Assembly: GCA_017499595.2 (NCBI GenBank) | Contig: CM039001.1 | Span: 1,116,001-1,180,000, forward strand | Reading direction: 5' to 3' | Origin: Psilocybe cubensis | Taxonomy: Eukaryota | Length of the DNA: 64,000 nucleotides | Part shown: piece by piece, positions 49,493 to 54,800 of the stretch | Numbering within the stretch: the first letter of the stretch is position 1 | Layout of the letters: the number at the start of each line of letters is the position of its first letter | The notes under the pieces: model-generated | Databases searched by the model: none | Seen by the model: the letters and a program-made list of their open reading frames with translations, nothing else | Told to the model about the DNA's origin: nothing | Translations under genes and position numbers: made by a program

Positions 49493-51163
49493 ATGGCGCT
49501 TCTTCGGGGACTAACTTTGTTTCTACTGGGAGTCAGGGTGTCTTCCTTGGTACCATCGAACAGTGCACAGAACAATGTATGCATTCTTACTCATCTTAGG
49601 TTTTTACTCGCTGAATACATGCATGGGGTAGGAATTTAACTCTATTCTCATAGCAGCTCCAGATGGATCTGCACGAGCAGCTTTCATTCCCTTTGGTGCT
49701 ATTGCCACTAATTTCTGGGTCAAGGACAAAGTTTGTTATTTTTCGTTGCAGAAGCGTTTGATTTCAACTCTCTCTTTCAAAACAGCATGGTGTCTTCCGA
49801 GACATCCTACTTGGATTCGATGACCATGTATGTCGCAAAGTTATTGTGTATAAAGCACACGTGTATTGAAAGAAATCGGTAATCTTAGACGTTATATCAA
49901 AGCGATGCAGAAGGACACCCCTACTTTGGTCCAATTGTTGGAAGGTTAGTTCAATCATGACATTCGAATATCATTAGTTCTGAAATTTTGAATATCAGAT
50001 ATGCGAATAGGATCAGAAATGGCACATTCACTATTCCTATAAGCAAAGATGCATCTGGCCCCAACAAGTTTTTTGTACCGAGGAACGAAGGTAACATACA
50101 AAAAAATCGAAAGATATCTACCTTTTCATTCAAGTTGTTGTCCTCATCCAGGCAATAATACACTGCATGGAGGTTTCGATGGGTTTGATCGTCGTGTTTG
50201 GCAGACAACCAAAGTCTCTTCCAGCTCCGTGACCTTCACCCTTGTTGACCCTGCAGGTACTCAAGGTTTCCCTGGAACGGTCCTGACAACAGTAAGTCTT
50301 GCTGATGCTACAGGCTGCCCATTCCTTAATATTTTTGCTAGGTGACGTACACTTTGGAACCAAAATCGACGTGGAACATCAAGATCCATGCAGTTGCTTC
50401 TGCTAAGACACCCATAATGCTGAGTGGACACCATTACTGGAATTTTGAGGCCTATCAGGAATCCCAGGACCTAGTCGGGCATTTTGTCCAGTTCGAATCT
50501 TCAAAATTTGTAGCGACAGATGGTCAATTGATACCAACAGGAAAACTGACCCCTGTAGCTGGTACACCTATGGATTTCAGGAAAGCAAAATCGATTGGCG
50601 CTAGCATTCCTCTTACCGCTCAAGCCCAATTTTGTGGAAGTGGTGTGTCAAAATATCTGCCTAATGATTAAGTCGATCTCGAGCCAGGCTTTCTAAACTA
50701 GGTTGTGTCGGATTTGACAATTGTTGGGTTTTCGATACAGTCGATCAAACCAAGAAGCCAAAATTTTCTATGTGGAGTGTTAATTCTGGTATCAAGTATG
50801 TTTGCAAAGCCCATTTGTGCAGATAATTGTTACTGACGCATTGACTTCAGACTTGACATCTTCACAAATCAACCTGCTGTTCAGGTCCGCAGCTATCTCC
50901 TATCTTAACTTGTCTTACTTTTCTTACGATCGACGCAGGTGTACACTTGCAATGGCATCTTCAATGCATCGCTACCCATCCCCAGAAAAGCGACACAAGG
51001 AGGTCCTAATAACATCTATGCTGACCACTCCTGTGTCGTCATTGAAAATGAAAGTTTGATTGACGCTATCAACAACCCAGAGCTTGGGGTTGATCAAATA
51101 TTCGGGCCAGGTAGACCCTACGATTGGGAGTCAACCTACGTTTTCTCCACAATACAAGATTGA
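49493..51163 (+). CDS. Aldose 1-epimerase (galactose mutarotase-like) with predicted signal peptide
   Basis: TATAAATA at 49453; hydrophobic MALLRGLTLFLLGVRVSS; DILLGFD, YFGPIVGRYANRIRNG, LHGG, GFPG, GHHYWN, LIPTG, GFDNCW, TNQPAVQVYT. Confidence 0.9.
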
Positions 51164-51172
51164 CTGTTATGC

Positions 51173-51760
51173 CTATGTAAACGGTAGTCCATCGTCAATG
51201 TCGAATCTGCTATACAATATGCACATAATGTACAAGCTTAAGGTCCGACGAGAGGAATTCGAGCAGTATAAATGCCACAATAAATGCACGTATGATAGAT
51301 ACAAGCTTTGCAAACTGGCTAAACAGAAAGATGTGTCGAGGATAACAATGAGGTACACAGTTTGATAGTTATTTACGCAAAGCAGAGAAAATAAAAGATA
51401 GAGCCCAATAAACGCTAGACCGAAGCAACCTAAAAATAAGAGGAGGTGAGCTCTCGAGTATCGGTGAAGGGAGATTAGAAGAGTGAAGAATCAGGGCTCC
51501 CAAGCGTAAATAGGGAACCAGGGTAGGTTGTCGTCAATGTGCAAGCACTTGGCCTGGTGCACAGCGTAATTTCATCTTGTAAAGATAGAAAGAAATGCGT
51601 ACTCACAAACAACACCGCACCCCGTTGGAAGACAGTTGAAGAGAAGATGGCCGCCTGCAAATTTTTGTGCACCTTTTTATGGCAGTTCAAAATTCCCACG
51701 GTGCATTTAATCACGTTTAGCAGACAGACCTGGCAGCTACTATTAGTAGCCACAATGATG
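51173..51760 (-). ncRNA. Putative spliced snoRNA host transcript (boundaries approximate)
   Basis: Canonical introns 51729-51655 (GTCTGT...TGCAG) and 51606-51430 (GTGAGT...GCTCAC...TTTAG) flanking a 48-nt exon, on the strand opposite both neighbouring genes. Confidence 0.5.
51487..51582 (-). ncRNA. Intronic box C/D snoRNA, snR40-like (predicted guide for 18S rRNA Gm1271, yeast numbering)
   Basis: Degenerate C box AAGATGA (51578-51572), guide GCTGTGCACCA (51565-51555) complementary to conserved 18S UGGUGCAUGGC, degenerate D' CCAA, C'-like TGACGA, D box CTGA (51494-51491); sits in a GTGAGT...TAG intron 51606-51430. Confidence 0.7.
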
Positions 51761-51888: not shown

Positions 51889-54800
51889 ATGAATCTATTC
51901 ACTCCTAATCATGTAAAGCTCCTCAATTCATGCTATCCTCCAACCTCGTCTCTCCTCACAGCTGGGCCCGAATATTCACCAAATTCACATGAACTTAGCC
52001 GACTGACCTACTATGCGTCAGCACTTTCCTTCATCTTTTAACTTCAATTACTTAATTCGTCGTCTAGGTCAAACCATCCAGGGAAGCTGGCCAAGATTGC
52101 AGGCGAATTAGAGAAGCGTTTGAAGGCAGAATGCAAGAAAGCGAAATCGGGAAATATTCGATCCAGGGCGTACGTTCAGGCATATCTTCCTTCATATTTA
52201 CCGCTCATTTATGTCTGTCAGCTCCTTATTAATATCACTGTCAATATTTCGGTCTCTTGCCACGGAATGCAGAAGGGATATTGCCCTACTGTCTCCTTCT
52301 CTGATTGGATCCGTCGATTATACTTTAGCGTCGCTTTTAATGGATCTTGAAGTTACTGCAAGGGCTGCGACCGTTGTGAGTCCTGTCTTGTCATCTGTAT
52401 AATTTTGTAGCTCTGACGTCAGAGCAGTTCACTGCATGGACCACCTACACGAATGGTCATCTTATTGGAGCTGATAGCAACATGACAAAGGACTATCTGT
52501 CAATATTGAAGCAATTTGCTACCCTAAGCTGTTCAATATCCTCTGACCAGGAAACACAGAATCGGTATGACAGAATTCATTCTTAACTCATTTAGTTCTC
52601 AATGGCATAGATAAAACAGCACACGACTAATAGGTCTTGCTGCCCTGACGGCTGCGTTGAACTCTGAAGCTTTATATAATGATATCGGAAACTTTGGAAC
52701 CCAAGTCTCCATTATCTTGTGTCCTATCATGGTCATTCTCTTTGAGACTCCTCTGTCTACTCTGGACGACCAGTATGTCTGCGGAATCTTGTTGAAGTTT
52801 TGCATATACTAATTCTGGCAAGATTTTCTGCAGTTAAAGATTCCTCCGCTTCTCCATACCTGGCTGAGTTCAGAACAAGACCTGCTTTAGAGCGTCGGGC
52901 GGCGTCAATCCATATCCACGTCGATGGGGACAAAGGACCGTCATCTTCTGACGTTTCTGATGCATCTTTGCACGCACTATTCTCCCTTCTCAACCATGCT
53001 AATGGCGCTCAACTGGGCTATATCATGCAGTCCTCGTTTGACAATTTGGATTCATTGCAGAAGTGGTCCGAATACGATCACTGCTGTTGGTATGCTCAGA
53101 GAGTCGCGGAATGGGCCCAGTACCAATATCGCTATGTCGTCCCCACTTGGCTCGTGGATCGCTTGTTATCCCAACCAGAAAGCCCTGGAAGCACTGTTCT
53201 TTATCAAACCTTGGTGGCTATGGTTACTTCTGTATTCAGCGCTCCGACACCACTCATTAATTTGTCTTCTTCGGACATCATGTCCAATCTGCTGACACTT
53301 ATGCTTCGATGTATTTCTATTAACCCTGAGGACGTCACTCTTCCTGCTTTGGTGGAATGTATATCTTCATTAGGATGTCATGTATATTATTCTGATCAAA
53401 TACAAGACCTGGCGGTAAGGCTGTTTTATAAAATGTGGAATGACCGTAATGCATTTACCGATTGTTTGCAGGGCGAATTGGTCGGTCGGCTTGTTTCCAT
53501 TGAAGTTCAGGGAGTCCTTGGAAGGGACAAGGCCACATCGCTCCAAACCAGGTCATCAGCCATCCGTTGCCTCTTAGAAGGTTTGCTTGGTCTTGTCCGT
53601 GCCGCCAATGCAAACGAGAGAGTCGAATCGGCGGATGAAACCTCTAAAAGATGTTCTCCAGAGCCAAAATCCAGAACATCTCTAGACACCTCTCGCTTAG
53701 AAAGAACAGATGAAAGGGCATCCCGACGCACCAGAGTGCCTCCTGACATCTGGCAAGATACTTTGAGTCTTTTGTGCGATAGCGACCCACTGGTACGAGA
53801 GGAATGTTCTAACGCATTGGTTTATTATATAACCCAAGAAATGCCCAAGCACGGGGAAAGTAGTGAACCCGCAGCAGTGAAGCCTATGCGACGTATTGCC
53901 GACACATTCCGTCATCATGTTGGCGTCCATCCAAGTATTGGGGATTCCGGCAGCAAATTCCTCAATTCTGTGCATGCTTATCTTTACATTCTCGCCACTT
54001 CCCCGACGTTGGGAATATCGCCCTCGGTTGTAGGCAATGCTCGCCTTTCTTCATACGACGATTCTTCTTCCAATGCCCCACCGCCTATCATATCTGATTT
54101 GCACCATGATTTGGGAGAAAACCGTTCTGCACCATCTCCAAGCAGTAATCGCCGTTCTATCGGCGGCCATAATGTCTCAAGAGCTCGAAAGGAATCTTTG
54201 GTTCTCGGCCTTCTAGAGAGAACACCATCTCAGTATACCACTTCTGCCAAGGCCTCAGAGGAAGACTATGCCCACCTTCTAAAGATACTCACAACAATCC
54301 AGTCGCGCATGCCATTGCATGGGTTGCTCACAGGAATACCAATGATCTTGGCGTTGAATGCTGCCTTAAATACCCAAGATATTGATATCAACCTCCTCCA
54401 TCGAATTGTCACAATCAAAACAGTCATTGCTCATGTATGGCTCGTAATAGGACAAGTGTGGAAATTACAAGATCTTGTAAATCTGGCTGAAAAGGTCCGT
54501 TTTACATTATAATTTCAAGTGTAGATGTTGTTGTTGACGTTGGTATATAGGCAATCAAAAATTTGTCTTCTTTTCCAAATAAAGGTACCACTGAAGGTTT
54601 TCCTTTGGACTCGCATACATTGGGAATAGACGTGGATGAGGCATTGAGCCTAGTTACATCCTCACAAGCTGTTCAAGAGGCCTTTGGAATGGATCAAGAA
54701 GGATTGACGAGGAGGGTCATGGTCAAGTGGACCCCAGAACTTGCTCTTCGAGATTGTAAGCTCGATCCTTATCATAACCAGCAACTTCTAATGTTTTACA

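What the first reader, a model, noticed from the sequence alone, without database searches (positions are those of the whole stretch)
51430..51606. Hidden intronic snR40-like box C/D snoRNA between the mutarotase gene and EFR3
Seen: a 177-nt minus-strand intron, about three times the typical intron length here. It contains, in order, AAGATGA, GCTGTGCACCA-GG-CCAA, TGACGA, a GGTTCCC/GGGAGCC hairpin and CTGA. The 11-nt guide pairs, with two G-U wobbles, to the conserved 18S segment UGGUGCAUGGC. Taking CCAA as the D' box, the fifth-nucleotide rule targets the G equivalent to yeast Gm1271. From memory, yeast snR40 carries the same wobble guide; that needs verifying. The C and D' boxes are non-canonical, so annotation pipelines would likely miss it.
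Basis: partly seen in the sequence, partly recalled or inferred. Interest (0 to 1): 0.8.

Follow-up and report, generated by a model that had tools for sequence, protein, structure and literature searches.

The report
Mushroom rRNA methylation guide RNA
This is an ordinary small nucleolar RNA, related to yeast snR40, that most likely guides two sugar methylations in 18S ribosomal RNA; its only unusual part is a conserved hairpin where yeast carries a second guide.

Summary
The snoRNA is real. All motifs are present. Rfam snR40 and Afu_190 match only below their cut-offs. Three homologous copies on 2 of 118 metagenome loci keep the boxes, a donor 29-46 nt before box C, and 3' elements that were not in the search pattern. 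Yeast snR40 methylates both with one guide. The yeast 25S Um898 guide is absent here. It sits on another snoRNA of this genome, beside an snR50-type guide, matching Cryptococcus 'snR50-snR40l'. In its place is a conserved hairpin whose loop may dock on 18S near G562 (12 of 500, post hoc; not significant rRNA-wide). Splicing is inferred, not seen: the RNA contig across the interval is unspliced. Intronic snoRNAs in non-coding hosts are the fungal norm. The scan noted a similar snR40-like RNA in another genome. Low interest.

The parts
51488..51582 (-). box C/D snoRNA, about 90-95 nt (88 nt from box C to box D); ends estimated
51572..51578 (-). box C, AAGAUGA (U2>A). The three homologous copies have canonical RUGAUGA at the aligned place
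51553..51565 (-). D' antisense guide. C51557, fifth before D', faces own-18S G564 (yeast G562; 9+4 bp, one bulged U) and G1276 (yeast G1271; 11 bp, 2 G-U)
51549..51552 (-). box D', CCAA (CCGA, CUAU, CGCG in the homologues; first C invariant)
51531..51537 (-). box C', UUGACGA (4 of 7 invariant over four copies)
51518..51523 (-). CCCUGG, invariant in all four copies; no supported target
51495..51519 (-). 7-bp hairpin directly before box D, in place of a D guide. The 11-nt loop (51512-51502) has UACGCU invariant and is complementary to own-18S 596-603
51491..51494 (-). box D, CUGA
51430..51606 (-). candidate host intron, GTGAGT...TAG, 177 nt; branch-like CTCAC at 51450-51446; splicing inferred
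   Evidence: homologous introns 194-211 nt; no joint
51286..51627 (-). extent of a separate, unspliced RNA-type contig covering the snoRNA: putative short non-coding host transcript (strand inferred, contigs carry no strand)
   Evidence: run X2 record 4
51674..51681 (-). TATA-like CATAAAAA about 70 nt before the donor, in the gap shared with the divergent EFR3 gene (inferred promoter element)
   Evidence: sequence
50342..51163 (+). last exons of the aldose 1-epimerase (mutarotase) gene, convergent neighbour; stop ends at 51163
   Evidence: PF01263 E 1.4e-15
51889..54400 (+). 5' part of the EFR3 gene, divergent neighbour; ATG at 51889
   Evidence: PF21072 E 1.7e-4, below cut-off, on one exon

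Best explanation
A box C/D methylation-guide snoRNA: the 18S half of yeast snR40. A short non-coding RNA polymerase II transcript, divergent from EFR3, carries it in a 177-nt intron (inferred). After splicing and trimming, the ~90-nt RNA binds Snu13, Nop56, Nop58 and fibrillarin (inferred from the family). Its single D' guide pairs in turn with two places in 18S pre-rRNA and puts the same C, five before D', opposite G564 (yeast G562, helix 18) or G1276 (yeast G1271, helix 34), directing 2'-O-methylation of both. The pairings are shown on this genome's rRNA; the methylations are inferred from yeast. The two G-U pairs at the helix-34 site are Watson-Crick pairs at the helix-18 site, so the guide is a compromise between two targets. 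Box D guides no known site: yeast's Um898 guide is carried by a different snoRNA in this genome.
For: Rfam snR40 and Afu_190 are the only two matches in 2 kb. The top two sites of the four-copy D' guide over 18S, 5.8S, 25S, U2, U5 and U6 are these two (-20.8 and -19.1, next -15.6 kcal/mol), and 0 of 90 column shuffles reach either value. Homologues on 2 of 118 metagenome loci (three copies) keep C', CCCUGG, the loop and the hairpin, none of which was in the search pattern: 19 of 47 positions invariant from C' to D against 4 of 80 in the flanks. Each copy lies 29-46 nt after GTGAG(T/C) and 68-77 nt before a YAG (here 28 and 61). Yeast snR40 uses one guide, C27, for Gm562 and Gm1271 (deletion and point mutants, PMC4344503). 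A perfect 13-bp Um898 guide plus a G867-register guide lies in L172, G000:C1.
Against: Below both Rfam cut-offs (26.6 of 50; 14.6 of 35 bits). Box C and box D' are non-consensus, and no terminal stem is predicted. No splice joint; the one contig across the whole interval is unspliced. The single window guide alone is not better than its shuffles (50 of 300). Conservation of the guide itself is partly circular because it was the search pattern. Only three genomes are sampled, and this genome's rRNA stood in for the rRNA of the other two. No small-RNA or methylation data.
Confidence: 0.85

Rival explanations
1. Same snoRNA, but not intron-derived: it is cut from its own unspliced transcript (51627 to about 51286), and the GT...AG ends are unused or rarely used.
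For: Contig X2-4 spans the interval unspliced, and no joint is seen in either RNA-type run.
Against: The contig holds only 21 nt before the donor, too little to bridge a joint (31 are needed), and contigs drop rare forms. Donor and acceptor spacing is kept in all three homologous copies, two of them in tandem with a short exon between. 45 of 55 Neurospora box C/D snoRNAs are intronic (PMC2780460).
Confidence: 0.15
2. The RNA guides only one of the two sites, most likely G562, as predicted for Neurospora CD43 and Aspergillus Afu-190; the other pairing is a leftover.
For: The helix-18 site pairs better (-21.2 against -19.1). Nc CD43 and Afu-190 are each listed with that single target.
Against: The bulged U, which costs energy at helix 18 but is needed at helix 34, is kept in 3 of 4 copies and in the Rfam snR40 consensus; the Afu_190 consensus lacks it. 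The fourth copy has a change that favours helix 34.
Confidence: 0.2
3. The 3' half is a real second guide for 25S rRNA: the loop and 3' arm open and pair with 25S 1334-1348, putting G51499 (five before box D) opposite C1338.
For: Best 25S site for 3 of 4 copies (-19.9, -18.3, -15.5) and best mean site overall (-15.3).
Against: 23 of 90 shuffles do as well. There is a purine-purine mismatch at position 4 before box D in those three copies. L024 does not fit (-8.1) and instead has a perfect 10-bp match to a different 25S site. The segment is paired in a conserved hairpin. No equivalent site is in the Neurospora table.
Confidence: 0.12
4. Chance motifs or a decayed copy in an intergenic or 3'-UTR region, with no function.
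For: Sub-threshold Rfam scores; non-consensus box C; the mutarotase contig of X1 reaches 51553.
Against: Conserved in two other genomes without shared neighbours. It is the only such locus among 5 guide-pattern matches in this genome. The L172 snoRNA also has A at box C position 2.
Confidence: 0.04

Closest known systems
Saccharomyces cerevisiae snR40 (Rfam RF01201, clan CL00054; CD_43 of the fungal snoRNAome)
   Same: The 12-nt D' guide is identical to the Rfam consensus and in the same D'+5 register. Both 18S targets, G562 and G1271, are pairable. The dual target is predicted for 67 of 90 fungal members (PMC5824354) and proven in yeast (PMC4344503).
   Different: No Um898 guide at box D; a hairpin stands there instead. 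Box C is AAGAUGA and D' is CCAA. 26.6 bits against a cut-off of 50. Apparently intronic in a non-coding host.
Neurospora crassa Nc CD43 (S. pombe snR80) and Aspergillus fumigatus Afu-190 (RF01498)
   Same: Single D' guide to the G562-equivalent (Gm559, Gm557). CD43 is 96 nt and intronic. This is the closest match in architecture.
   Different: The Afu_190 consensus lacks the bulged U, so it fits helix 18 without a gap. Score 14.6 against a cut-off of 35. No matching 3' hairpin is visible in the Afu_190 consensus. I did not see the CD43 sequence.
Cryptococcus 'snR50-snR40l' and snoRNAs in introns of non-coding hosts (bioRxiv 10.1101/2024.10.08.617225)
   Same: Spliced non-coding hosts whose only conserved part is the intronic snoRNA. 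The name implies the Um898 guide joined to the snR50 guide (my reading of the name), which is the arrangement found here in L172.
   Different: The main text names only that RNA. The Cryptococcus 18S-half counterpart and its 3' half were not visible to me.
'Extra base-pairing' elements of box C/D snoRNAs (PMC3116282)
   Same: Conserved 4-11 nt complements near the methylation site, placed in the second guide region when there is only one guide, or in a loop (snR70); mutation lowers methylation 2-5 fold.
   Different: Here the candidate sits in the loop of a hairpin abutting box D and would pair 25-32 nt downstream of the guide-paired stretch rather than next to it; untested.
Human SNORD32A/U32A and Arabidopsis snoR21
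   Same: They guide the G1271-equivalent site (Gm1328, Gm1272; table in PMC3511168).
   Different: The same table lists U32a also for 28S Am1511. No sequence comparison was made here.

Membership tests
box C/D methylation-guide snoRNA | box C near the 5' end and box D (CUGA) near the 3' end, 70-120 nt apart | tested here: met
   AAGAUGA (one change, GAUGA core intact; canonical in 3 of 3 homologues) and CUGA, 88 nt span
box C/D methylation-guide snoRNA | internal D' and C' boxes | tested here: met
   CCAA and UUGACGA in conserved register; divergent C'/D' boxes are normal (PMC3116282)
box C/D methylation-guide snoRNA | antisense element of 10 nt or more to rRNA just before D or D', target at position 5 | tested here: met
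   11 bp to 18S 1274-1284 and 9+4 bp to 559-571; 0 of 90 shuffles
box C/D methylation-guide snoRNA | stable small RNA bound by Snu13, Nop56, Nop58 and fibrillarin; target methylated | not testable with these tools
   only contigs of long-RNA type were available
Rfam RF01201 snR40 | score at or above the gathering cut-off (50 bits) | tested here: not met
   26.6 bits; homologues 21.2 and 21.0
Rfam RF01201 snR40 | D' guide for 18S Gm1271 and Gm562 | tested here: met
Rfam RF01201 snR40 | D guide for 25S Um898 | tested here: not met
   absent here; present as a perfect 13-bp guide on the L172 snoRNA
Rfam RF01498 Afu_190 | score at or above 35 bits | tested here: not met
   14.6 bits here, 22.8 for L019a
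intron-encoded snoRNA in a non-coding host | host intron is spliced | tested here: inconclusive
   splice signals conserved in 4 of 4 copies; no joint and one unspliced contig with only 21 nt of first exon
intron-encoded snoRNA in a non-coding host | exons are not conserved and carry no conserved ORF | tested here: inconclusive
   blastn of L019 and L024 against the window hit only the snoRNA, and tblastn hit nothing. The joined exons have no ATG-led frame before the last ~30 nt examined, though one frame is open for about 99 codons.
acetylation guides snR4/snR45 (U13 type) | two guide segments flanking a looped-out CCG cytosine | tested here: not met
   the D' guide fits the D'+5 methylation rule; no second segment with support flanks the helix-34 CCG

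The most novel reading that the evidence does not exclude
In these fungi the snR40 lineage lost its 25S guide to another snoRNA and turned the box-D half into a docking hairpin. The invariant UACGCU loop would seed pairing on 18S 596-603 (yeast 594-601, just past helix 18). The 3' arm would then leave its own stem and pair with 18S 588-592, helping to open helix 18 so that the D' guide can reach G562. That would be a hairpin-gated form of 'extra base-pairing', and it could bias one shared guide between its two targets.
Probability: 0.3. Interest if true: 0.5.

Novelty: new member of a known kind. Interest (0 to 1): 0.25.

Why it matters
Mostly an annotation gain: a real snoRNA that Rfam's thresholds miss, in a group where Rfam-based surveys find few (seven in a Pleurotus genome, PMC5040776). 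It extends the one-guide, two-target design of snR40 to a mushroom-type fungus (lineage inferred, not tested). It also gives a clean case of guide reshuffling, with yeast snR40's two halves on two separate RNAs in one genome. Such reshuffling is already described for fungi (PMC2780460 abstract). Deleting snR40 in yeast has no growth, processing or drug phenotype (PMC4344503), so the stakes are small. The open point is the conserved hairpin loop: if it docks on 18S, this RNA would be a simple system for asking how one guide chooses between two sites.

Tried and rejected
Rfam at gathering thresholds: 0 matches in the window. Sequencing runs: no holder is on record as RNA; X1 and X2 are guessed RNA, both from one study, but show 15 GT-AG joints. 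No listed X1 or X2 piece covers 51628-51752; this is not used as evidence. Depth figures are not used. More homologues: 0 of 41 and 0 of 13 viral-contig matches have the anatomy; 0 matches in prokaryote genome contigs; 116 of 118 metagenome matches are chance, with model R1 giving at most 14.5 bits outside its own training copies. Synteny: L019 and L024 share no protein match with the window; L024 neighbours an EF-hand gene. An 11-bp match of CCUGGUUCCCU to 18S 734-744 was dropped: it is not next to a D box and is not among the top five shared sites. CCCUGG has no supported target (12 of 60 rRNA-wide; 310 of 500 near the targets). The loop alone is not significant rRNA-wide (30 of 60). U2, U5, U6 and 5.8S gave no leading site for any block; U1, U4, U3 and tRNAs were not tested. 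Hairpin covariation is not significant on its own (69 of 500 shuffles). Supplements of PMC5824354 could not be read; they, the supplements of PMC3116282 (not requested) and the COALISPR documentation may already hold basidiomycete members and their 3' halves.

Full report
Setting. The window is G000:C4:1116001-1180000 of a 46.6-Mb genome in 21 contigs. Its short introns and rRNA suggest a mushroom-type basidiomycete; that is my inference and was not tested. The element lies on the minus strand between the stop of an aldose 1-epimerase gene (51163, + strand; PF01263) and the ATG of an EFR3 gene (51889, + strand; PF21072 below cut-off on one exon; coordinates). It is therefore convergent with the first gene and divergent from the second, and lies in an intron of neither.

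Observation. The GT...AG interval is 177 nt, 3.2 times the 55-nt median of the 15 neighbouring introns seen as joints in contigs of two RNA-type runs. Rfam finds nothing in the window at gathering thresholds. In E-value mode on 2 kb it gives exactly two matches, both here: snR40 (26.6 bits, cut-off 50, E 0.019) and Afu_190 (14.6 bits, cut-off 35). The locus is also the best RF01201 match in the genome (E 0.168; 61 of 1902 candidates scored). The 12-nt guide alone could be chance in 64 kb (21 of 100 shuffles), so the case rests on conservation and target fit.

Homologues. Two have the full anatomy, L019 and L024, and L019 holds a second copy in the next intron that the pattern had not matched. 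Over the four copies, 38 of 88 positions from box C to box D are invariant, against 4 of 80 in the intron flanks. In the half from C' to D, which was not in the pattern, 19 of 47 are invariant. All three homologous copies have a canonical box C, so AAGAUGA is the true box C here; L019b has a degenerate box D. Neighbouring genes are not shared. This is three genomes only, and two of the copies are paralogues.

Targets. I fetched this genome's 18S, 25S, U2, U5 and U6; 5.8S came with the 18S locus. For the four-copy D' guide, the two best sites over all of them are 18S 559-571 (mean -20.8 kcal/mol) and 18S 1274-1284 (-19.1); the next is -15.6. No column shuffle of 90 reached either value. With CCAA as D', the fifth base, C51557, faces G564 at the first site and G1276 at the second. 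These map to yeast G562 and G1271 by offsets from U578 and C1280; the sequence context of those two anchors is recalled. Yeast snR40 methylates both through one guide base, shown by deletion, complementation and point mutants (PMC4344503, parts 2-4 of 5 read). The double fit is predicted for 67 of 90 fungal members (PMC5824354, passages and section 29). The two guide Gs that wobble at helix 34 make G-C pairs at helix 18, and the U bulged at helix 18 is needed at helix 34. The guide thus looks like a compromise between two targets (inference). The single window guide by itself does not beat its shuffles (50 of 300).

The missing second guide. Yeast snR40 also guides 25S Um898 from box D. The site is intact in this genome, but this RNA has no guide for it. 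A pattern search found 3 matches in the genome. One, L172 (G000:C1, about 3167407-3167490), sits in a 154-nt GT...AG interval with a perfect 13-bp Um898 guide before CUGA and a 10-bp D' guide whose fifth base faces 25S G894, the yeast G867 equivalent by my offset. That G867 is the snR50 site is recalled. A Cryptococcus RNA is named 'snR50-snR40l' in bioRxiv 10.1101/2024.10.08.617225 (passages and section 21 read), which fits this pairing. So yeast snR40's functions are split over two RNAs here. One-guide relatives are in print: Neurospora CD43 (96 nt, intronic, 18S Gm559; PMC2780460, parts 1-2 of 6) and Aspergillus Afu-190 (Gm557; PMC2377427, one passage).

The 3' half. After C' come an invariant CCCUGG and a 7-bp hairpin ending at box D. 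RNAalifold finds this stem unaided; 26 of 27 cells pair and two pairs change on both sides. With four sequences that is not significant against shuffles (69 of 500), though it exceeds all six slid controls. The loop keeps UACGCU unchanged. Across all rRNA and snRNA, the best shared sites of loop plus 3' arm are 25S 1334-1348 and 18S 586-603, and neither beats shuffles (23 and 21 of 90). PMC3116282 (passages and section 8) reports that single-guide snoRNAs often carry 4-11 nt of extra complementarity near the target in the second guide region. Restricting the search to 50 nt around the two targets, the loop's best site is 18S 596-603: 8 bp in three copies, 6 bp in this one; 12 of 500 shuffles for the loop, 1 of 500 for loop plus arm, 310 of 500 for CCCUGG. 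This test came after I had seen the match, and three blocks were tried, so it is a lead. The 25S alternative has a mismatch next to the would-be target and fails in L024.

Is it an intron? In all four copies GTGAG(T/C) lies 28-46 nt before box C and a YAG lies 61-77 nt after box D. In L019 two copies sit in consecutive GT...AG intervals. Against this, one search shows no joint here, and contig X2-4 runs from 51286 to 51627 unspliced. That contig has only 21 nt before the donor, short of the 31 needed to bridge a joint, so the test is weak. It does show a separate RNA-type contig over the element; X1's mutarotase contig reaches 51553, and contigs carry no strand. Non-coding spliced hosts are known: 45 of 55 Neurospora box C/D snoRNAs are intronic, and Cryptococcus has hosts conserved only in the intron. 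I put the intron at about 0.8.

Mechanism: shown and inferred. Shown: boxes, conservation, pairing to both 18S sites in register, absence of the Um898 guide and its presence elsewhere, and an RNA-type contig over the locus. Inferred: Pol II host and splicing, trimming to about 90 nt, snoRNP assembly, methylation of G564 and G1276, and any role of the loop. In yeast, snR40's helix-34 site overlaps those of snR55 and the acetylation guide snR4, and Kre33 hybrids were seen at both snR40 sites (PMC5464676, passages); nothing here tests that.

Novelty. It works like snR40's D' half and is a box C/D guide RNA on every sequence feature tested. It does not meet the RF01201 cut-off and lacks the Um898 guide, so I file it as an 18S-only snR40/CD43-type orthologue rather than an RF01201 member. 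Seven literature searches listed no paper on this RNA in Agaricomycetes or on the hairpin loop. A Pleurotus survey does not name snR40 in its main text (PMC5040776, passages). The fungal snoRNAome covers Basidiomycota and its supplements were not readable, so members may well be on record. PMC6171561 and PMC3511168 were seen as passages only. Earlier notes of this scan describe an snR40-like intronic RNA in another genome and a five-intron snoRNA host in this one; I did not check them.

Verdict. Real, conserved and mostly ordinary: new member of a known kind, interest 0.25. The most novel reading left open is the docking hairpin (probability 0.3, interest 0.5 if true).

Noticed in passing
L172:1434-1517 + (G000:C1, about 3167407-3167490): Second box C/D snoRNA in a 154-nt GT...AG interval: box C AAGACGA, a D' guide in register for 25S G894 (yeast G867, snR50 site recalled) and a perfect 13-bp D guide for 25S U925 (yeast Um898). 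Matches the Cryptococcus name snR50-snR40l, but here it is not interrupted by an intron of its own.
   Followed up: partly
L172:1607-1764 +: The next GT...AG interval (158 nt) holds another box C/D candidate with a guide complementary to this genome's U6 at 48-57; sub-threshold Rfam match to snoU6-53 (19 bits, cut-off 36). L172 looks like a two-intron non-coding snoRNA host with a TATA-like run upstream.
   Followed up: partly
L019:1167-1261 and 1424-1530 -: Two tandem copies in consecutive introns. The second has a degenerate box D and a guide change that favours the G1271 site over G562 (-19.8 against -18.1): possible decay or division of labour.
   Followed up: partly
L024, about 1441-1450 -: The 10 nt before box D pair perfectly with this genome's 25S 2638-2647; not shared by the other three copies. 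Possibly a lineage-specific D guide, or chance.
   Followed up: no
window:51628-51888: About 260 bp between the end of the host contig and the EFR3 ATG; EFR3 contigs begin at 51753-51756. Likely a compact divergent promoter with a TATA-like run at 51681-51674 on the minus strand.
   Followed up: no
window:51164-51553: The X1 mutarotase contig runs about 390 nt past the stop codon into the snoRNA: either a long 3' UTR antisense to the host, or merging of convergent transcripts in an unstranded assembly.
   Followed up: no
window:51538-51552 -: A weak stem can form between D' and C' here and in the homologues (-2.6 to -3.5 kcal/mol) although the sequences differ; such stems are usual for C'/D' motifs.
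   Followed up: partly
G000:C13:2240294-2242142: One of the three 18S copies scores 1521 bits against 1826 for the other two and is 42 nt longer: a divergent or poorly assembled rDNA unit.
   Followed up: no
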